Source of the DNA: Candidatus Omnitrophota bacterium
Lineage (GTDB): Bacteria; Omnitrophota; Gorgyraeia; 2-01-FULL-45-10
Length of the DNA stretch: 64,000 bases
Assembly: GCA_028699255.1 (NCBI GenBank)
Contig: JAQVUX010000002.1
Coordinates: 107,520-171,519, forward strand
Direction of reading: 5' to 3'
Shown here: positions 4,876-23,630 of the stretch, one piece after another
Layout: the number at the start of each line of letters is the position of its first letter
How positions within the stretch are numbered: the stretch's first letter is position 1
Translations under genes and position numbers: made by a program
The notes under the pieces: model-generated
What the model was told of the DNA's origin: nothing
The model's input: the letters and a program-made list of their open reading frames with translations, nothing else
Databases searched by the model: none

Positions 4876-6765
4876 ATGTTCGATTCCATAAAAATATACT
4901 TAAACGAAGACGTGGACGTTGAAGTTCTTGCGGCGAAGCTTGTCGAGTACGGTTACCGCGCCTGTAAACGCGTTGCCGAGGAGGGCGACTTCTCGCGTCT
5001 CGGCGATACTATTGCCATATACCCCGTTACGTTTGAATACCCTCTAAGGATAGAGCTCCTCCATGATCGCGTAGAAAAAATACGTTCGGTCGATCCTGTC
5101 ACATACGAGCCCGTGCAGGAACACGCAAGCGCCATAATACTTCCGATAAGCGGCATAGCGCGTAAGAAGATACGCCGCAAAGAACTCGGGTTCGTCGAAG
5201 AATCGCCGATAGATAATTTCGTCGATATAGAGCCGGGCGACTACGTCGTGCATATCGAACACGGTATAGGCAGGTATCTCGGGGTCGAAAAGATAAAGGT
5301 CGACAAAAAATATACGGAACATTTCGCGATAGAGTATTCCGGAGCCAACAAGCTTTATGTGCCGTTCGCCGACCTGGACAAACTGCACAAATACCTCGGG
5401 TTCGAGAAGCGCTTGCCGAAATTGAACAAGCTCGGCTCCGCGCTGTGGAAGAGCGCCAAGGAGCGCGCCAGGAAGGGCGTGCAAAAGGTCGCGCTCGAGC
5501 TACTCGAGCTCCAGGCAAAGCGCGCAGGCGCCGGAGGGTACAGCTTTCCGCCGGATACCGAATGGCAGGCCCAGTTGGAGAAAGCGTTCCCGTACAAAGA
5601 AACGCCGGATCAGGTAAAATCGTCCGCCGAGGTCAAGCGCGACATGGAGGCCCCTAAGCCGATGGATCGGCTTCTCTGCGGTGACGTGGGGTACGGCAAG
5701 ACGGAGGTGGCTATCCGCGCCGCGTTCAAGTCCGTCATGGCCGGCAAGCAGGTAGCCATCTTAGTGCCAACGACGATACTCGCCGAACAGCATTTCAACA
5801 CATTCACGACGCGCATGAAGAGTTTTCCCGTCAAGGTCGAGATGCTTTCGCGTTTTCGCACGGCTAAGGAGCAGGACGAAATAGTGAAAGGGATAGAGGG
5901 TGGATCGGTTGATATAATAATAGGCACCCATCGTCTCATATCGGGCGACATAAAATTTAAAGATCTCGGCCTTGTTATAATTGATGAGGAACAGCGTTTC
6001 GGGGTGCGTCACAAAGAACATTTGAAGAAGATGCGCGTCTCGGTCGATGTCCTTACACTTACCGCTACCCCGATACCCAGGACGCTTTACCTGGCGCTTA
6101 TGGGCGGCCGTGACATTTCTGTCATAAATACTCCGCCTTCCGAGCGCCTGCCGGTAGATACGAAGGTCGTGCATTACGACGAGCTCCTGATAAGGGACGC
6201 GATAATGAAAGAGAAACGCAGGGGAGGGCAGGTCTTCTTCGTCCACAACAGGATACGCGGCATAGACAGAGTGGCTCAGACGATCGCGAAACTGGTCCCG
6301 GACGTATCGATAGCCATAGGCCATGGCAGGATGAATGAAAAAGAGCTCGAGGCGACGATGATAAACTTCATCAAAGGCAAAGTCGACTGCCTTGTCTCGA
6401 CGACCATTATAGAATCCGGCATAGACATTCCGAACGCGAACACTATCATAATAAACCATGCAGACAAATTCGGGCTATCCGAGCTCTATCAACTGCGCGG
6501 CAGGGTCGGCCGTTTTACCCGGGCGGCATACGCGTATCTCCTGGTATCGAAGAATCTCGTCTTGAGCTCCGAGTCGCAGAAGCGTCTGGTCGCGATAAAG
6601 AAGTTCCAGGAGCTTGGTTCGGGCTTCAAGCTTGCGATGGAAGATCTGCAGATAAGAGGGGCGGGAAACCTGCTCGGTACCGAACAGCACGGTTTCATTA
6701 ACGCGGTCGGTTTCGATCTCTACTGCCGTCTTCTCAAATCCGCCATCGACAGCATGAAAAAATAG
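4876..6765 (+). CDS. mfd: Transcription-repair coupling factor, short form (RID + translocase; no D7)
   Basis: CarD_TRCF motif DIEPGDYVVHIEHGIGRYLG, Walker A GDVGYGKT, DEEQ, motif VI QLRGRVGR; ends ~87 aa after motif VI. Confidence 0.8.
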   Translation: MFDSIKIYLNEDVDVEVLAAKLVEYGYRACKRVAEEGDFSRLGDTIAIYPVTFEYPLRIELLHDRVEKIRSVDPVTYEPVQEHASAIILPISGIARKKIRRKELGFVEESPIDNFVDIEPGDYVVHIEHGIGRYLGVEKIKVDKKYTEHFAIEYSGANKLYVPFADLDKLHKYLGFEKRLPKLNKLGSALWKSAKERARKGVQKVALELLELQAKRAGAGGYSFPPDTEWQAQLEKAFPYKETPDQVKSSAEVKRDMEAPKPMDRLLCGDVGYGKTEVAIRAAFKSVMAGKQVAILVPTTILAEQHFNTFTTRMKSFPVKVEMLSRFRTAKEQDEIVKGIEGGSVDIIIGTHRLISGDIKFKDLGLVIIDEEQRFGVRHKEHLKKMRVSVDVLTLTATPIPRTLYLALMGGRDISVINTPPSERLPVDTKVVHYDELLIRDAIMKEKRRGGQVFFVHNRIRGIDRVAQTIAKLVPDVSIAIGHGRMNEKELEATMINFIKGKVDCLVSTTIIESGIDIPNANTIIINHADKFGLSELYQLRGRVGRFTRAAYAYLLVSKNLVLSSESQKRLVAIKKFQELGSGFKLAMEDLQIRGAGNLLGTEQHGFINAVGFDLYCRLLKSAIDSMKK

Positions 6766-16754: not shown

Positions 16755-17415
16755 GTGGAGCATACTTTTCCGTTTGGTGTTGGCCGCGATCTTAAGTGGT
16801 ATCATAGGTTTTGAACGCGAATTCCACGGTCGCGCCGCAGGTTTCCGGACGCACATACTTCTCTGTGTCGGTTCCACGCTTATAATGCTTACCTCGATGC
16901 ACATATTCGACATATATTCCGCCAAGACTGCCATCGATCCCGCGCGAATAGCCGCCGGTGTTATTACAGGTATCGGATTTCTCGGCGCCGGCACGATAAT
17001 GCATTCCAGATCCGCCGTCAGAGGGCTTACTACCGCCGCGAGCCTGTGGGTCGTGGCCGGGATAGGACTCGCGGTCGGCTCGGGTTTTTACTACGGCTCC
17101 ATTATCACCACCATCCTGACGATAGTTACGCTTATGTTCTTCTCGCGCCTGGAACACGCCATGATCCGCAAAGATTGGTACAGGACTATCACTATTGAAA
17201 CTAAAGACGGCGTCGAGCAATTAAAGGCGATCCGGGAAATAATTGCCGGCTGTAGATCGGAGATAACTGACTTCGAAGTCGAACGTGCGCCGGACAATGC
17301 CGGCATGATATTACAGATAGGCCTGAAACTTTATCAGCCGAGGCTCGCCGACCAGATAATCGAAGACCTTGGGCACTTGGACGGCGTAAAGCATGTGAAG
17401 TGGGAGTTGGAATAA
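16744..17415 (+). CDS. MgtC/SapB family membrane protein
   Basis: 4-5 TM helices followed by a MgtC C-terminal ACT-like domain. Confidence 0.75.
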   Translation: MLNEWSILFRLVLAAILSGIIGFEREFHGRAAGFRTHILLCVGSTLIMLTSMHIFDIYSAKTAIDPARIAAGVITGIGFLGAGTIMHSRSAVRGLTTAASLWVVAGIGLAVGSGFYYGSIITTILTIVTLMFFSRLEHAMIRKDWYRTITIETKDGVEQLKAIREIIAGCRSEITDFEVERAPDNAGMILQIGLKLYQPRLADQIIEDLGHLDGVKHVKWELE

Positions 17416-17431
17416 AAACAGGGGGTGGGGT

Positions 17432-17974
17432 ATGATGGGAAAGAGGGATAAGAAGCAGGAGGTCGAAAGGGTTTTGGATGTAGATGCCTCTATGCAGGGT
17501 TCGCTCTCCTTTAATGACCCTGTCAATCTGCGCATCAATGGAAAGTTCGACGGTCTGCTCAATACGAAGGGCAACCTGATGATAGGCGAGCACGCGTCGG
17601 TGAATGCCGATATAACGGGCGAGTCGATCATAGTGGCGGGCAAGGTTTCAGGGACTGTGCGGGCGCTGAAAGAGTTGAAGCTGATTTCCCCCGCATGCGT
17701 TACGGGTGAGATATCCACTCCGGTCTTAAGCATAGCCGAGGGCGCTATATTCGACGGTACCTGCAGGATGCTCGGCCGCGCACCGGCCGACGCGGCGGGC
17801 GCATATGGGGTTATGATGACGCCGGACGAGTTGGCGAAATATCTCGAGGTCGAGGTCGGAGTTATATCCGAGTGGGTTAATTCCGGTAAGATCCCCGGCA
17901 TGAAAGAGGGGGACACCTGGAGATTCGACCGCAACCGTATCGATGAGTGGGTCGCGGAAGGGAAGATAAAATAA
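17432..17974 (+). CDS. Bactofilin domain fused to C-terminal excisionase-type HTH (HTH_17)
   Basis: Bactofilin beta-helix repeats (INGKFDGLL..GNLMIGEHASV..) then ...LAKYLEVEVGVISEWVNSGKIPGMKEGDTWRFDRNRIDEWV. Confidence 0.7.
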   Translation: MMGKRDKKQEVERVLDVDASMQGSLSFNDPVNLRINGKFDGLLNTKGNLMIGEHASVNADITGESIIVAGKVSGTVRALKELKLISPACVTGEISTPVLSIAEGAIFDGTCRMLGRAPADAAGAYGVMMTPDELAKYLEVEVGVISEWVNSGKIPGMKEGDTWRFDRNRIDEWVAEGKIK

Positions 17975-17977
17975 ACT

Positions 17978-18379
17978 ATGCCTGAAAAATTACTGAGCAT
18001 TAAAGAAGTCTCGGATTATCTGAAGATACCCGAGGAAGAGGTGAAGCGTCTCGTCGATATCGGGGAGATACCCGCTTATCGTATAGGCGATACGTTCTTA
18101 CGATTCAGGAAAGAGCAGATAGACGCGATAAAATCCGATATCTCCGAGATCGAAGAGAAGGAGCCGGAGCACGTAAAGCCTGTTCTGGACGTAAAGGGTA
18201 AGCCCGCGCACACCTATACCCGGATGGAGCAGGAGATAAAACGCAAAGAGCCCTCTACCCGTCAATATGATTATACGTTTGTGGAAAGGGTTAGGGATTT
18301 TTTCTATTTCAACGATTTCTATATTATCTCATTCCTGTTGATAGCTTTTTTGATGTATCTTATCTTTAAAAAGGCCTAA
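17978..18379 (+). CDS. HTH_17 DNA-binding protein with C-terminal transmembrane anchor
   Basis: LLSIKEVSDYLKIPEEEVKRLVDIGEIPAYRIGDTFLRFRKEQIDA, then charged linker and TM (FYIISFLLIAFLMYLIF). Confidence 0.6.
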   Translation: MPEKLLSIKEVSDYLKIPEEEVKRLVDIGEIPAYRIGDTFLRFRKEQIDAIKSDISEIEEKEPEHVKPVLDVKGKPAHTYTRMEQEIKRKEPSTRQYDYTFVERVRDFFYFNDFYIISFLLIAFLMYLIFKKA

Positions 18380-19140: not shown

Positions 19141-21276
19141 ATGCGCATAGCGTACTTCGACTGTTTTTGTGGCATATCCGGCGACATGACGCTCGGAGCG
19201 TTTTTGGACGCGGGCCTTAGCGTTAAAAAACTTTCGAGTGAGCTCGCGAAGCTTAAAGTCGGCGGATACAGGTTGAAAAAGTCGAAGGTTTTGCGCGGTA
19301 GTATAGCCGGCACAAAGTTCGAATGCGTCGCGGACGGTTCCGCGCATGGTCATCGCTCTCTCAAAAGTATTAATGCGCTTATCGACGGAAGCTCGCTTAG
19401 CGGCCGCGTCAAAACGATGGCGAAGCGGATATTCGGCGTTATCGCCGCGGCGGAGACGAAGGTTCACGGCAAAGCGCGCGCCAAAGACGTGATATTTCAT
19501 GAGCTCGGCGATATTGATTCGATCGTTGATATAGTTGGAACGGCTATCGCGATGGAAGAGATGAGTATCGACGCTGTCTACTCGTCCTGTGTAAATATGG
19601 GGCGCGACATAGTCATGACCAGACACGGCAATATCCCGGTACCGTCTCCGGCGAGCATAGAGATATTAAAAGGCGTACCTGTGTCGATAACCGGTATAAA
19701 TGCGGAGATCGTTACGCCGACCGGCGCGGGGATACTGAAAGCGCTCTCGAAAAGCTTTGGCCCGGTCCCGAGCATGGAAATATCCGGTATAGGATATGGC
19801 GCCGGTTCTAAAGATTTTAGCGAGCGCCCGAATCTTTTGCGGGTTATCATAGGCGAGTCGAAGAGTTCATTTAAAGAAGATACAGTGTATGTGGTCGAGA
19901 CGAATATCGACGATATGAATCCCCAGCATGCCGGATATGTCATCGAGAAGGCGATGACTGCGGGTGCCGTCGACGCGTACATCGCAAATATACAGATGAA
20001 GAAGGCGCGTCCGGCGTTTAAATTAACGGCGATAACGCCTGCGGGAAAATTGCGGAGCGTAGCCGATGTCATTTTTGCCGAAACATCCGCGATCGGCCTG
20101 AGGTTTTACGAAGTAAACAGAATGAAGCTCGACAGGAAGGTTGCCATCGTGAATACCAATTACGGAAAAATAAGCGTGAAGATAAGCAAAGGGCCGGGTG
20201 GGATTGCTACTGTGTCGCCGGAACATGACGAATGCGTCGAGGCGGCGCGGCGCAGGAATGTGCCGCTACGGAAAATATATGACGCGGCGAAATCGGCCGC
20301 CAGGACAGCGCTATTGGCGGCATCTTTTGTGCTATTTACCGCCGCCTGTCAACTATCGGTTTCCTGCGCAGATACCATCGATACGAACGAAGGGCAGGAG
20401 TTGAAAGGTATTGTCGTAGAGGACTATAAAGACCGCATTATAATGTCGACCGTGGACGGTGAAAAGACGATAATGAAATCGGATATCAAAGAACTTTATT
20501 ACGACGAAGAAGAAGATAACCTTATAAAACTTGGCGACCAGGCCAAAGAAAAACGCGATTATATAAAAGCCCTTACATATTATGACATGGCGTTTAAAAA
20601 GAACCCCAATTCCAAAGCGGCCAAGGACGGGCTCGTTTTTCTGGAAGGGTATTTATTCAGGAAAGAGCAGGCGCAGAAGGAAGAGGACGTAAGGCGGCGC
20701 GAAGATCTGGAGCGCCAGGGCGTAACGGCCACCGTACAGACGGAGCTTGATACTAAGCAGAAAGTCACTGCGCTGAGAAAAGCCGTCGGCATTACGCTTG
20801 CCGTGAAAGACGGATTTCCGGTGGCGGAGAGCGTTCAGCCGAATTCACCGGCGGACGAGGCCGGGATAGAAAGAGGCGATAGGCTCGTCGCTATATGGGC
20901 GCGCCTTACCGGATATATGAGCCTGGATGAGGTTTTAGGCGCCCTCTTAGATAAGCCATCGTTGGAATTGAAATGTACTATTGAGAAGACGGTAGATGTT
21001 GCGATAAATCCGTACAGGCTGGTGGCGCCCGGGCCCAACGAACTCATAGGAGCGTCTCTTGCGATGAGATTCGATGGGCTTACCATCGACTCAGTACGCC
21101 GGGACGGCGCGGTAGTTAAGGCCGGACTTAAAGCCGGCGACCTTATCACCGCGATAGACGGCAAATCGACCCGTTATATGCCGATGAAGAAAGCCGTAAG
21201 CATGATACGGGATTCTAAAGAGAAGACGGCGATCTTAACCGTGCGAAGAGAAATATTACTCTGGAGGAGAGATTAA
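19141..21276 (+). CDS. larC: LarC (nickel insertion, DUF111) fused to lipoprotein-like TM + 2x PDZ C-terminal module
   Basis: MRIAYFDCFCGISGDMTLGAFLDAG and LarC C-domain to ~aa 385; then ...ALLAASFVLFTAAC (lipobox-like), TPR-like region and two PDZ motifs (GIERGDRLVAI; GLKAGDLITAIDG). Confidence 0.7.
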   Translation: MRIAYFDCFCGISGDMTLGAFLDAGLSVKKLSSELAKLKVGGYRLKKSKVLRGSIAGTKFECVADGSAHGHRSLKSINALIDGSSLSGRVKTMAKRIFGVIAAAETKVHGKARAKDVIFHELGDIDSIVDIVGTAIAMEEMSIDAVYSSCVNMGRDIVMTRHGNIPVPSPASIEILKGVPVSITGINAEIVTPTGAGILKALSKSFGPVPSMEISGIGYGAGSKDFSERPNLLRVIIGESKSSFKEDTVYVVETNIDDMNPQHAGYVIEKAMTAGAVDAYIANIQMKKARPAFKLTAITPAGKLRSVADVIFAETSAIGLRFYEVNRMKLDRKVAIVNTNYGKISVKISKGPGGIATVSPEHDECVEAARRRNVPLRKIYDAAKSAARTALLAASFVLFTAACQLSVSCADTIDTNEGQELKGIVVEDYKDRIIMSTVDGEKTIMKSDIKELYYDEEEDNLIKLGDQAKEKRDYIKALTYYDMAFKKNPNSKAAKDGLVFLEGYLFRKEQAQKEEDVRRREDLERQGVTATVQTELDTKQKVTALRKAVGITLAVKDGFPVAESVQPNSPADEAGIERGDRLVAIWARLTGYMSLDEVLGALLDKPSLELKCTIEKTVDVAINPYRLVAPGPNELIGASLAMRFDGLTIDSVRRDGAVVKAGLKAGDLITAIDGKSTRYMPMKKAVSMIRDSKEKTAILTVRREILLWRRD

Positions 21277-21957: not shown

Positions 21958-21990
21958 CAAAAGGGGACGCTACGTCCTTTTTTCTTTTGG
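21958..21990 (+). terminator. Putative rho-independent terminator
   Basis: aaaaGGGGACGctaCGTCCttttttctttt; short GC stem followed by a T-run. Confidence 0.4.
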
Positions 21991-23280: not shown

Positions 23281-23346
23281 TTGACAATGCCGCTTTATAG
23301 GGTATACTTTAGGTTACTGCGTATCAGTGTATACTAAAAGAGTATA
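23281..23346 (+). promoter_or_regulatory. Consensus promoter TTGACA-16-TATACT followed by a TATACT/AGTATA palindrome
   Basis: -35 at 23281-23286, -10 at 23303-23308; IR TATACTaaaagAGTATA at 23330-23346. Confidence 0.45.
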
Positions 23347-23378: not shown

Positions 23379-23573
23379 ATGCCCGAAGACGTTGTCTTCA
23401 CGGTTCAGGAAGTAGCCACATATCTGCGGATGCAACCCGTTACCATCTATAAGCACGCAAAGGCCGGGAAGCTTCCGTGTTTCAAGGTTGGGGCTAACTG
23501 GCGATTTAAGAAGTCAACTATAGATCGCTGGATATCTGAACAGGAAGAGAAAGAAAACGGTTTTTCAAGCTGA
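23379..23573 (+). CDS. Small excisionase-family HTH (HTH_17) DNA-binding protein
   Basis: FTVQEVATYLRMQPVTIYKHAKAGKLPCFKVGANWRFKKSTIDRWI; third HTH_17 paralog in the window. Confidence 0.65.
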   Translation: MPEDVVFTVQEVATYLRMQPVTIYKHAKAGKLPCFKVGANWRFKKSTIDRWISEQEEKENGFSS

Positions 23574-23630
23574 TGTCCAATCTCATATTTTGAGGTTGGC
23601 ATTTTTGTTTGGAGCCGAGATAAGGTAAGT

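What the first reader, a model, noticed from the sequence alone, without database searches (positions are those of the whole stretch)
17432..18379. Bactofilin fused to an excisionase-type DNA-binding domain, followed by a tail-anchored membrane paralog of the same HTH
ORF 17432-17974 has a typical bactofilin beta-helical core, then a C-terminal HTH_17 domain (LAKYLEVEVGVISEWVNSGKIPGMKEGDTWRFDRNRIDEW). The next gene encodes the same HTH_17 fold at its N-terminus, an acidic linker and a single C-terminal TM helix. Bactofilins normally recruit DNA-segregation factors through partner proteins. A direct bactofilin-DNA-binding fusion paired with a membrane-anchored protein carrying the same DNA-binding domain suggests a compact polymer-based DNA/nucleoid tethering or positioning device.
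Basis: partly seen in the sequence, partly recalled or inferred. Interest (0 to 1): 0.55.

Follow-up and report, generated by a model that had tools for sequence, protein, structure and literature searches.

The report
Bactofilin-HTH with membrane-anchored HTH partner
An uncultivated Omnitrophota bacterium carries a filament-forming bactofilin with a DNA-binding-type domain on its tail, always followed by a small membrane-anchored protein with the same type of domain; this conserved, unstudied pair probably scaffolds something (perhaps the chromosome) at the membrane, but the bactofilin's own domain seems to have lost a residue needed to bind DNA.

Summary
ORF 17432-17974 encodes a bactofilin beta-helix, a disordered linker and an HTH_17/BldC-type winged helix (wHTH). 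ORF 17978-18379 encodes an HTH_17 wHTH, a variable linker and a C-terminal TM helix.

The pair is a conserved module in Omnitrophota and related PVC lineages. Of 85 assessable unique fusion loci, 84 have the tail-anchored HTH gene directly downstream (median gap 15 nt). This holds in unrelated neighbourhoods and down to 33% identity.

Two corrections. The two HTHs are only 31% identical, and the bactofilin's HTH is closer to a third, standalone HTH_17 at 23379-23573. The bactofilin's wHTH is net acidic in all 30 family members examined. It carries Glu147 where RacA, RicO and BldC have the Arg whose loss abolishes RacA/RicO DNA binding. The partner in this window keeps that Arg (R24).

My best reading (about 0.4) is a split version of the RacA/RocS/RicO chromosome-membrane tethers. 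The partner supplies the wHTH and the membrane anchor. The bactofilin supplies polymerisation in trans and docks through its acidic wHTH. A polymer that binds DNA directly, a RodZ-like adaptor with no DNA role, and a BacR-like regulatory switch all remain possible.

I found no paper describing this. It is a new variant of known kinds.

The parts
17420..17431 (+). Purine-rich Shine-Dalgarno-like stretch (AGGGGGTGGGGT) in the 16-nt gap between the mgtC stop (17413-17415) and the P1 start. There is no room for a dedicated promoter.
   Evidence: Sequence read directly. The promoter scan finds only 9/12 matches here, no better than shuffles.
17432..17974 (+). P1: bactofilin-wHTH fusion gene (180 aa plus stop).
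17432..17470 (+). P1 N-terminal tail (aa 1-13, MMGKRDKKQEVER). It is basic and disordered and resembles the BacA membrane-targeting sequence MFSKQAKS (hydrophobic residue 2, K4, K7), but it is not conserved in distant family members.
   Evidence: pLDDT below 50 for residues 1-11. Family alignment. MTS definition from PMC12448750.
17471..17770 (+). P1 bactofilin beta-helical core (aa 14-113). F107 aligns with the polymerisation-interface residues BacA F130 and TtBac F105.
   Evidence: Pfam PF04519 E=3.2e-23. pLDDT about 90-97. Alignments to 2n3d and 6ria. Foldseek TM 0.81 and 0.78.
17771..17812 (+). P1 flexible linker (aa 114-127). Its length ranges from 4 to 20 residues across the family.
   Evidence: pLDDT below 50 for 116-126. 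Family alignment.
17813..17962 (+). P1 C-terminal HTH_17/BldC-type winged helix (aa 128-177). Net charge is -5 and the recognition helix is EVEVGVISEW, with Glu147 at the RacA R19 / BldC Arg position.
   Evidence: Pfam PF12728 E=8.8e-12. Foldseek to BldC at rmsd 1.1-1.3 A. Charge table. Profile alignment to RacA and BldC.
17956..17965 (+). SD-like GGAAGGGAAG for P2, lying inside the 3' end of P1. P1's stop and P2's ATG are 3 nt apart, which suggests translational coupling.
   Evidence: Sequence read directly. The median intergenic gap across loci is 15 nt.
17978..18379 (+). P2: tail-anchored wHTH protein gene (133 aa plus stop).
17990..18127 (+). P2 N-terminal HTH_17 winged helix (aa 5-50). 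The recognition helix PEEEVKRLV keeps the key Arg (R24). The wing FLRFRKE is conserved, and R42 is invariant across all lineages.
   Evidence: Pfam E=1.5e-9. Foldseek to BldC at rmsd 1.0-1.2 A and to RacA at rmsd 2.2 A. Alignments A2 and A6.
18128..18277 (+). P2 linker (aa 51-100). Its length ranges from 14 to 50 residues between lineages, model confidence is low, and no long coiled coil is predicted.
18278..18376 (+). P2 juxtamembrane motif (ERVRDFFYFNDFY) plus the C-terminal TM helix (aa 101-133). The aromatic/Asn-Asp motif is conserved across distant clades.
   Evidence: Helix 101-132 with block-mean pLDDT 74-93. Hydropathy. The motif is present in 76 of 94 partners. Alignment.
20299..21276 (+). 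Possible associated component (uncertain): the signal/TM-TPR-PDZ-PDZ half of the LarC-PDZ ORF. A homologue lies immediately upstream of the pair in an unrelated context (L030).
   Evidence: BLASTP 30% identity over 304 aa, E=5e-45. Pfam PDZ hits. L030 gene map.
21959..21983 (+). Strong terminator-like hairpin (11-bp stem followed by a T run) that closes the long co-directional gene array containing the pair.

Best explanation
The two genes encode one membrane-associated cytoskeletal unit, built like a split version of the RacA/RocS/RicO chromosome-membrane tethers. P2 supplies the N-terminal MerR/excisionase-type winged helix, with its DNA-contact Arg intact in this window, and the membrane anchor (a C-terminal TM helix). 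P2 has no oligomerisation domain of its own. P1 supplies the oligomeriser in trans: a bactofilin polymer displaying one winged helix per subunit on a flexible linker. P1's winged helix is acidic and carries Glu where DNA-binding relatives need Arg. I therefore infer that it docks onto P2, either wHTH to wHTH or onto P2's conserved cytoplasmic elements, rather than onto DNA. This would cluster many P2 molecules into a multivalent membrane patch able to hold DNA, most plausibly the chromosome. Shown: the domain architectures, folds and tail-anchor; the strict conservation of adjacent, tightly spaced genes across contexts; the charge reversal in P1 and the retention of the Arg in the window's P2. 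Inferred: polymerisation, physical P1-P2 contact, DNA binding by P2, and the cargo.
For: Architecture and fold. Linkage: 84 of 85 assessable unique fusion loci have an HTH_17 ORF with a C-terminal TM directly downstream (median gap 15 nt; 3 nt in the window), while the flanking genes vary (MgtC, TsaD, TPR-PDZ or hybrid kinase upstream; LarB or other downstream). The pair persists at 33-41% identity in unrelated neighbourhoods (L030, L035, L037). The polymerisation-interface Phe is conserved (F107 = BacA F130 = TtBac F105). P1's wHTH is net -2 to -7 in all 30 members, and RacA R19 / BldC Arg aligns with P1 Glu147 (acidic in 28 of 30). P2 has R24 at that position, invariant in the close clade. 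Several distant P2s have basic recognition helices and a net HTH charge of +4 to +8 (L020, L035, L037). P1's MTS-like N-terminus is missing in several lineages (L014, L020, L023-26, L035), whereas the partner's TM is always present, so P2 is the conserved link to the membrane. Precedents: RocS and RicO combine a wHTH, a coiled coil and a C-terminal membrane helix, and the RocS helix needs prior oligomerisation to bind membrane (PMC11500499; bioRxiv 10.64898/2026.03.06.710092). RacA is anchored by the DivIVA scaffold (PMC4914108). Overproduced membrane-bound PbpC can functionally replace BacA's MTS (PMC12448750). Bactofilins bind the HTH protein BacR and hold it at the membrane (PMC13649987).
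Against: No direct evidence of a P1-P2 contact: no complex prediction was possible and covariation was not assessable. In the window's own clade, P2's HTH is also net -2 and starts its recognition helix with EEE. The R24 position is not conserved across the P2 family (E, D or S in L019-L026 and L030), and the L023-L026 partners have an acidic recognition helix, so DNA binding by P2 is not secure either. P2 has no recognisable coiled coil and is only weakly similar in sequence to RacA (E=0.42). The P0296/P0415 clade keeps the fusion without the partner, so the fused wHTH can have a role independent of P2. P1 keeps basic wing residues (K158, R164, R167, R169), so weak or non-canonical DNA binding is not excluded. 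The genomic context (tsaD, mgtC, larBC, housekeeping genes) gives no hint of chromosome segregation.
Confidence: 0.4

Rival explanations
1. One reading: both winged helices bind DNA directly. The bactofilin filament is itself a DNA-binding polymer, and P2 ties the same DNA, or the same sites, to the membrane.
For: Both domains are bona fide HTH_17/excisionase-family members above the curated cutoffs. Both superpose on DNA-bound BldC, RacA and excisionases. BldC-type domains multimerise head-to-tail on DNA repeats (entry titles of 6ama/6amk and my own knowledge), which would suit a periodic array on a filament. P1's wing keeps K158, R164, R167 and R169. A few distant fusions have more canonical recognition helices (L035 DPKTLNQW, L030 DSQKVKKW).
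Against: P1's wHTH is net acidic in every family member (-2 to -7), against +4 to +6 for BldC, Pukovnik Xis and the window's own standalone HTH_17. The Arg essential in RacA and RicO is Glu or Asp in 28 of 30 members. BldC's K/T/T/R recognition-helix positions are G/V/S/E in the window protein. The two HTHs are not closest paralogs, so a shared site is not implied.
Confidence: 0.2
2. A pure cytoskeleton-membrane adaptor with no DNA involved. Like RodZ with MreB, P2 uses its cytoplasmic HTH as a protein-binding module to anchor or nucleate the bactofilin at the membrane. The scaffold then positions some other client, for example an envelope enzyme.
For: RodZ is a membrane-anchored HTH protein whose cytoplasmic HTH domain binds MreB (PMC6052060). 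CbpM (3ucs) is a MerR-fold protein solved in complex with the CbpA J-domain, and it appears among the structural matches of both proteins. Both HTHs are acidic in the window's clade. Envelope-related neighbours recur: SPOR and TPR-PDZ in L030, and Ctp, a polysaccharide deacetylase and a PDZ protein in the window. The juxtamembrane/TM motif is strongly conserved, beyond what a generic anchor needs.
Against: P2 has essentially no periplasmic part, so it cannot couple to periplasmic machinery as RodZ does. P2 keeps the DNA-contact Arg in this clade and has strongly basic HTHs in several distant lineages, which a pure protein adaptor would not need. HTH_17 domains are overwhelmingly DNA binders (my own knowledge).
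Confidence: 0.2
3. A BacR-like regulatory switch. One or both HTHs are transcription factors whose access to DNA is controlled by sequestration in the polymer or at the membrane. They would be released on envelope or polymer perturbation.
For: In B. subtilis and Geobacillus, bactofilins BacE/BacF bind the HTH protein BacR, reduce its DNA binding and hold it at the membrane, and vancomycin relocates it to the nucleoid (PMC13649987). The acidic P1 wHTH could act as a decoy for P2's DNA-binding surface.
Against: The pair sits inside a tightly packed co-directional housekeeping array, with a 16-nt gap upstream and no promoter-like region of its own, so classic autoregulation is unlikely. A covalently polymer-bound or TM-anchored factor cannot be released without proteolysis, and no protease site or partner is evident. 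Neither protein matches DUF4004.
Confidence: 0.12
4. Mobile-element excisionase/regulator genes, or an anti-phage MADS component, that happen to lie next to or be fused to a bactofilin.
For: The best NCBIfam hits are 'excise' and MADS MAD1. JGI names both proteins 'excisionase family DNA binding protein'.
Against: MAD1 scores (44 and 39 bits) are far below its cutoff of 80. No gene annotated between 573 and 25624 is an integrase or recombinase. The surroundings are housekeeping genes (proA, nadD, argS, mfd, pdxA, rsmA, gatAB, tsaD). The locus is syntenic across Omnitrophota species. The pair is conserved as a unit in 84 of 85 loci.
Confidence: 0.02

Closest known systems
RacA (B. subtilis), RocS (S. 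pneumoniae) and RicO (S. aureus) chromosome-anchoring proteins
   Same: P2 has the same logic as RocS and RicO: an N-terminal MerR-type winged helix, a spacer and a C-terminal membrane-binding helix. The RacA DNA-binding domain is among the structural matches of both P1 and P2. P2 keeps the Arg equivalent to RacA R19 / RicO R18. These systems need oligomerisation or a scaffold (a coiled coil, or DivIVA) for function and membrane binding, a role the bactofilin could fill.
   Different: Here the oligomeriser is a separate bactofilin polypeptide, not an internal coiled coil. The anchor is a true TM tail-anchor, not an amphipathic helix. Sequence similarity to RacA is marginal (E=0.02 for the P1 profile, 0.42 for the P2 profile). 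The phylum is Omnitrophota, not Firmicutes. The scaffold protein itself carries a second, acidic wHTH, which has no counterpart in those systems.
Canonical bactofilins (C. crescentus BacA, T. thermophilus TtBac, M. xanthus BacNOP/BacP)
   Same: A DUF583 beta-helical core (PF04519), a conserved hydrophobic polymerisation-interface residue, disordered terminal tails and an MTS-like basic N-terminus in this clade. In M. xanthus, bactofilins organise the ParABS system through the adaptor PadC (PMC5703909).
   Different: Known bactofilins reach DNA only through partner proteins. Here a folded HTH_17 domain is fused to the C-terminal tail, and a dedicated membrane-anchored HTH partner is encoded next to it. 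No paper in the searchable library mentions bactofilin together with excisionase or Omnitrophota.
BacR (YhbD, DUF4004) with BacE/BacF of B. subtilis
   Same: An HTH protein is genetically linked to bactofilin genes. The bactofilins bind it, reduce its DNA binding and hold it at the membrane (PMC13649987).
   Different: BacR is a soluble DUF4004 protein of about 210 aa, encoded upstream of the bactofilins. Here the HTHs are HTH_17, one is fused to the bactofilin and the other is TM-anchored. There is no DUF4004 match.
RodZ-MreB
   Same: A membrane-anchored protein whose cytoplasmic N-terminal HTH acts together with a cytoskeletal polymer (PMC6052060).
   Different: RodZ has an XRE-type HTH and a large periplasmic domain, and its partner is actin-like MreB. 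P2 has an HTH_17, has no periplasmic domain, and is paired with a bactofilin.
BldC (Streptomyces) and excisionases/RDFs (Pukovnik Xis, RdfS, Tn916 Xis)
   Same: These are the closest folds and sequence families for both winged helices.
   Different: They are small soluble DNA-binding proteins with basic recognition helices. P1's domain is charge-reversed at a key position, and neither protein is associated with an integrase or mobile element.

Membership tests
Bactofilin (PF04519/DUF583) | Profile match to the bactofilin domain above the curated threshold | tested here: met
   82.2 bits against a cutoff of 27.9, E=3.2e-23, profile positions 2-97 of 98.
Bactofilin (PF04519/DUF583) | Right-handed beta-helical core resembling solved bactofilins | tested here: met
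   AF2 gives strands throughout 14-113 at pLDDT of about 90-97. Foldseek matches BacA 2n3d (TM 0.81, rmsd 2.5) and TtBac 6rib (TM 0.78).
Bactofilin (PF04519/DUF583) | Conserved hydrophobic residue at the C-terminal polymerisation interface (BacA F130, TtBac F105) | tested here: met
   F107 aligns with both. The column is F, L or M across the family.
Bactofilin (PF04519/DUF583) | N-terminal membrane-targeting sequence (MFSKQAKS-like; F2 and K4/K7 critical) | tested here: inconclusive
   MMGKRDKK has M2, K4 and K7, but the motif is absent in L014, L020, L023-26 and L035.
Bactofilin (PF04519/DUF583) | Nucleotide-independent polymerisation into filaments | not testable with these tools
   Requires purified protein with EM, or in vivo imaging.
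HTH_17 / excisionase-family DNA-binding domain (PF12728, TIGR01764) | Profile match above the curated threshold | tested here: met
   P1 scores 45.5 bits and P2 38.4 bits against a cutoff of 27. TIGR01764 gives 41.5 and 38.4 bits against a cutoff of 28.8.
HTH_17 / excisionase-family DNA-binding domain (PF12728, TIGR01764) | Winged-helix fold (three helices plus a beta-hairpin wing) like BldC/Xis | tested here: met
   P1 matches BldC at rmsd 1.1-1.3 A over 49 residues. P2 matches BldC at rmsd 1.0-1.2 A and Pukovnik Xis at TM 0.79.
HTH_17 / excisionase-family DNA-binding domain (PF12728, TIGR01764) | Basic recognition helix with the DNA-contact Arg before the conserved Trp/Leu (RacA R19, RicO R18, BldC 'TRW') | tested here: not met
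   This applies to P1: Glu147 sits at that position (acidic in 28 of 30 members), the recognition helix has net charge -3 and the domain -5. P2 in this window does meet it (R24, invariant in the close clade), but the position varies in distant P2s.
HTH_17 / excisionase-family DNA-binding domain (PF12728, TIGR01764) | Acts as an excisionase/RDF next to an integrase in a mobile element | tested here: not met
   Housekeeping, syntenic context, and none of the genes annotated between 573 and 25624 is an integrase.
RacA/RocS/RicO chromosome-anchor family | N-terminal MerR-type wHTH resembling the RacA DNA-binding domain | tested here: met
   P2 against RacA 5i44: probability 1.00, TM 0.66, rmsd 2.2 A. 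Sequence-level similarity is marginal (E=0.42).
RacA/RocS/RicO chromosome-anchor family | Central coiled-coil oligomerisation domain | tested here: not met
   The P2 model has only short helices at 45-61 and 82-90 with low confidence, and the linker varies from 14 to 50 residues. No dedicated coiled-coil predictor was run.
RacA/RocS/RicO chromosome-anchor family | C-terminal membrane-binding element (an amphipathic helix in RocS/RicO) | tested here: met
   The element is present, but as a hydrophobic TM tail-anchor rather than an amphipathic helix. It occurs in 94 of 94 partners.
RacA/RocS/RicO chromosome-anchor family | Binds origin-proximal DNA and positions the origin | not testable with these tools
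   Needs ChIP, DAP-seq or imaging.
BacR / DUF4004 (PF13171) | DUF4004 profile match | tested here: not met
   The Pfam scan at E<=0.1 returned only HTH_17 (and a weak MerR_1 hit for P1).
RodZ | XRE-type HTH, a single TM and a periplasmic C-terminal domain | tested here: not met
   The HTH is HTH_17, and only 2-4 residues follow the TM helix.
MADS anti-phage MAD1 (NF047737) | Score above the equivalog cutoff (80 bits) | tested here: not met
   44.3 and 38.6 bits.

The most novel reading that the evidence does not exclude
Omnitrophota and related PVC lineages have a previously unrecognised chromosome- or DNA-organising system in which a bactofilin polymer replaces the coiled-coil oligomeriser of RacA/RocS/RicO-type tethers. 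The polymer carries an acidic, DNA-binding-incompetent 'decoy' winged helix that pairs with, clusters and possibly gates a tail-anchored DNA-binding winged helix. This would be the first bactofilin wired to DNA through a built-in HTH module, and a case of convergent evolution of membrane-chromosome anchoring in ultra-small bacteria.
Probability: 0.3. Interest if true: 0.72.

Novelty: new variant of a known kind. Interest (0 to 1): 0.55.

Why it matters
Bactofilins are widespread scaffolds, but only a few of their clients are known. In the one described link to DNA, M. xanthus BacNOP with PadC and ParABS, the connection is indirect. Here the client-binding element is fused to the polymer, and a dedicated membrane partner is encoded next to it. 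That gives a minimal two-protein system of 180 and 133 aa that could be rebuilt in E. coli or in vitro. Such a system could test how a bactofilin couples to the membrane without relying on an MTS. It could also test whether an HTH_17 domain has been repurposed for protein binding, and how Omnitrophota, reported as mostly ultra-small and uncultivated (PMC10066038), organise their cell interior. The Glu-for-Arg swap yields simple predictions to test with the mutants P1 E147R and P2 R24A.

Tried and rejected
- A profile of the most divergent fusions (A3) was too variable for the metagenome scan. A closer alignment (A4) worked.
- One search was an empty script.
- Single-sequence PDB searches with the two HTHs gave only marginal hits. 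Family profiles were needed to align RacA and BldC.
- Literature searches for bactofilin with excisionase (0 papers) and bactofilin with Omnitrophota (no paper holding both) found nothing.
- I first thought P1 lacked a membrane-targeting sequence. I dropped that claim after reading PMC12448750, because MMGKRDKK shares the hydrophobic residue 2 and K4/K7 pattern. The status is now 'inconclusive'.
- I rejected a mobile-element or defence-system reading (housekeeping synteny, no integrase, MAD1 score below cutoff).
- I considered a magnetosome link because of MamF/MmsF in L038, but this concerns only the most divergent clade (27% identity), not the window's family.
- The charges of the two HTHs show no simple correlation across lineages, so electrostatic co-variation neither supports nor refutes a direct HTH-HTH contact.
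Full report
**1. The observation**

The two ORFs are at the stated coordinates: P1 at 17432-17974 (+, 180 aa) and P2 at 17978-18379 (+, 133 aa). They are in the same frame, 3 nt apart, and a purine-rich SD-like stretch for P2 lies inside the end of P1.

Pfam places a Bactofilin domain at P1 residues 14-111 (E=3.2e-23) and HTH_17 at 128-177 (E=8.8e-12). P2 has HTH_17 at 5-50 (E=1.5e-9). Both pass the NCBIfam 'excise' domain cutoff, and both fall far below the MADS MAD1 cutoff.

The AlphaFold2 model of P1 (mean pLDDT 82.5) shows four parts:
- a disordered N-terminal tail (1-11);
- a confident beta-helix (14-113, pLDDT of about 90-97);
- a disordered linker (116-126);
- a three-helix winged helix (128-175, pLDDT 81-88).

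Foldseek matches the core to BacA (2n3d, TM 0.81) and to the Thermus bactofilin. It matches the C-terminal domain to BldC (rmsd 1.1-1.3 A over 49 residues), then to RdfS and Pukovnik excisionases, RacA, CbpM and MerR-family heads.

The P2 model is less confident (mean pLDDT 64.8). It shows the same wHTH and one long C-terminal helix, 101-132. Its wHTH matches BldC (rmsd 1.0-1.2 A), Pukovnik Xis and RacA.

Hydropathy puts a TM segment at about 108-133, followed only by 'KKA', so P2 is tail-anchored.

- The two HTHs are only 31% identical. P1's HTH is closer to a third, standalone HTH_17 at 23379-23573 than to P2's.
- The P2 linker has a net charge of only -1.

**2. Organism and context**

Source names on close homologues place the window in Omnitrophota.

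The surroundings are a long, tightly packed, co-directional array of housekeeping genes: proA, nadD, argS, mfd, two PPIases, pdxA, rsmA, gatA, gatB, ctp, a polysaccharide deacetylase, tsaD, mgtC, P1, P2, larB, larC-PDZ and a HAMP protein. A strong terminator-like hairpin at 21959-21983 closes the array.

None of the genes annotated between 573 and 25624 is an integrase. The gap upstream of P1 is 16 nt, with no convincing promoter. This is not a mobile element. The window holds only one bactofilin.

**3. The pair is a conserved module**

P1 has 1760 database relatives at E<=1e-3, and the best 120 all carry both Pfam domains. P2 has 750 relatives.

In the exhaustive search of 50%-identity representatives, only about 25-30 clusters match across both domains. 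The remaining hits are plain bactofilins. The fusion persists down to 27-41% identity.

I collected 118 loci from reference genomes, metagenomes and exact look-ups and counted the following:
- 102 unique fusion proteins, of which 85 have enough downstream sequence to assess;
- 84 of those 85 are followed on the same strand by an HTH_17 ORF, with a median gap of 15 nt and a length of 97-155 aa;
- all 94 partner ORFs found (before removing duplicates) end in a hydrophobic C-terminal helix.

The flanking genes are not constant. Upstream is MgtC, TsaD, a TPR-PDZ protein or a hybrid kinase. Downstream is LarB or something else. The linkage is therefore specific to the pair and not a by-product of local synteny.

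The only clade without the partner is the most divergent one (P0296/P0415, about 27% identity).

Across clades, P2 conserves three elements:
- the wHTH;
- a striking aromatic juxtamembrane motif (DFFYFNDFYI);
- the TM helix.

The linker between them varies from 14 to 50 residues.

**4. Is the fused domain a DNA binder?**

P1's wHTH is net acidic in all 30 family members examined (-2 to -7, and -5 in the window). By comparison, the BldC fragment is +4, Pukovnik Xis +5, and the window's own standalone HTH_17 +6.

Family-profile alignments to solved structures put RacA 'KTVQRW' and BldC 'KTVTRW' opposite the P1 consensus 'skvveW'. The Arg before the conserved Trp is therefore Glu147 in P1. That position is acidic in 28 of 30 members.

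That Arg is RacA R19 and RicO R18, and changing it to Ala abolishes DNA binding in both (bioRxiv 10.64898/2026.03.06.710092, read, which cites the RacA structural work in PMC4914108). BldC's K/T/T/R recognition-helix positions are G/V/S/E in the window protein.

P2 looks different:
- The window's P2 reads 'EEEVKRLV' and keeps the Arg (R24, invariant in the close clade).
- Several distant P2s have basic recognition helices and a net HTH charge of +4 to +8 (L020, L035, L037).
- The picture is not clean. The window clade's P2 HTH is itself net -2, the R24 position varies in distant lineages, and the L023-L026 partners have an acidic recognition helix.

**5. Membrane attachment**

The BacA membrane-targeting sequence is MFSKQAKS, with F2 and K4/K7 critical. 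[quoted passage not shown]

P1 starts MMGKRDKK, which resembles that pattern. The motif is missing in several lineages (L014, L020, L023-26, L035). The partner's TM helix is always present. P2 is thus the conserved link to the membrane.

The polymerisation-interface Phe (BacA F130, TtBac F105) corresponds to P1 F107.

**6. Mechanism**

The best-supported reading is a split version of the RacA/RocS/RicO tethers. Those proteins combine a MerR-type wHTH, a coiled-coil oligomeriser and a membrane or pole anchor. The RocS membrane helix binds membrane only after oligomerisation (PMC11500499).

In this module:
- P2 has the wHTH and the anchor but no evident oligomeriser.
- P1 is an oligomeriser that carries an acidic wHTH.

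I infer that P1 docks on P2 and clusters it into a multivalent membrane patch, which could hold DNA. I put this at about 0.4.

The rivals are:
- a RodZ-like adaptor with no DNA role (about 0.2; RodZ in PMC6052060, and the protein-binding MerR fold of CbpM);
- a BacR-like sequestration switch (about 0.12; PMC13649987);
- a mobile-element or defence reading, which is effectively excluded.

None of polymerisation, P1-P2 contact or DNA binding could be tested here.

**7. Novelty**

Sources annotate P1 only as 'polymer-forming cytoskeletal protein' or 'excisionase family DNA binding protein'. In the searchable library, 21 papers hold both 'bactofilin' and 'helix-turn-helix', and none of the 17 listed describes such a fusion in its title or abstract. 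No paper combines bactofilin with excisionase or with Omnitrophota.

I class this as a new variant of known kinds: a bactofilin scaffold combined with a wHTH/membrane tether. The finding is moderately interesting. The module is compact, conserved and experimentally tractable in heterologous systems, and it yields clear predictions to test by mutation. Its function remains inferred.

Noticed in passing
window 23379-23573 (+): A third, standalone HTH_17 gene (64 aa, Pfam E=8.5e-16) with a canonical basic recognition helix (net +6). It has the best promoter-like match in the region (23281-23308, 11/12) and a terminator-like hairpin just after it (23577-23599). A similar small HTH_17 ORF follows the HAMP gene in several relatives (L002, L003, L004, L008, L014). 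It is closer to P1's HTH than P2 is.
   Followed up: partly
window 19141-21276 (+): A single 711-aa ORF fuses cytoplasmic LarC (nickel-pincer cofactor insertion) to a signal/TM-like segment, a TPR region and two PDZ domains. In several relatives (L008-L017) tblastn splits the match near aa 388-405, which suggests two genes. A homologue of the TPR-PDZ half (30% identity, E=5e-45) sits immediately upstream of the bactofilin-HTH pair in an unrelated context (L030, next to a SPOR protein). It may be a third associated component.
   Followed up: partly
L038 1-6567 (JGI 3300009777, Ga0105164_10002154); also L029: The most divergent bactofilin-HTH_17 clade (about 27% identity, no HTH-TM partner) lies in a cluster with a MamF/MmsF-family gene, a full-length Volactin-family actin-like protein (E=2e-91) and a ParA/MinD-type ATPase fused to a CBM48/AMPK glycogen-binding module. 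This looks like an organelle- or cargo-positioning cluster.
   Followed up: partly
window 18278-18376 (P2 aa 101-133) and partners in L001-L037: The juxtamembrane/TM sequence DFFYFNDFYI, with Asn-Asp embedded among aromatics, is far more conserved than a generic membrane anchor would need to be. This suggests helix-helix association in the membrane or a specific membrane partner.
   Followed up: partly
window 4876-6765 (+): The mfd-like ORF is only 629 aa. It matches positions 290-820 of the 907-position Mfd model, plus a short UvrB-homology stretch at its N-terminus, so it may be a shortened transcription-repair coupling factor.
   Followed up: no
P0283 (311 aa): One database protein joins a glycosyltransferase domain to a partial bactofilin core and the HTH_17. 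It is probably a frameshift or assembly chimera rather than a real architecture.
   Followed up: no
L007, L011, L014, L015, L017: Several MAGs labelled 'uncultured Planctomycetia' carry the same syntenic locus as the Omnitrophota genomes (Ctp, deacetylase, TsaD, MgtC, then the pair). Their taxonomic labels are probably wrong.
   Followed up: no
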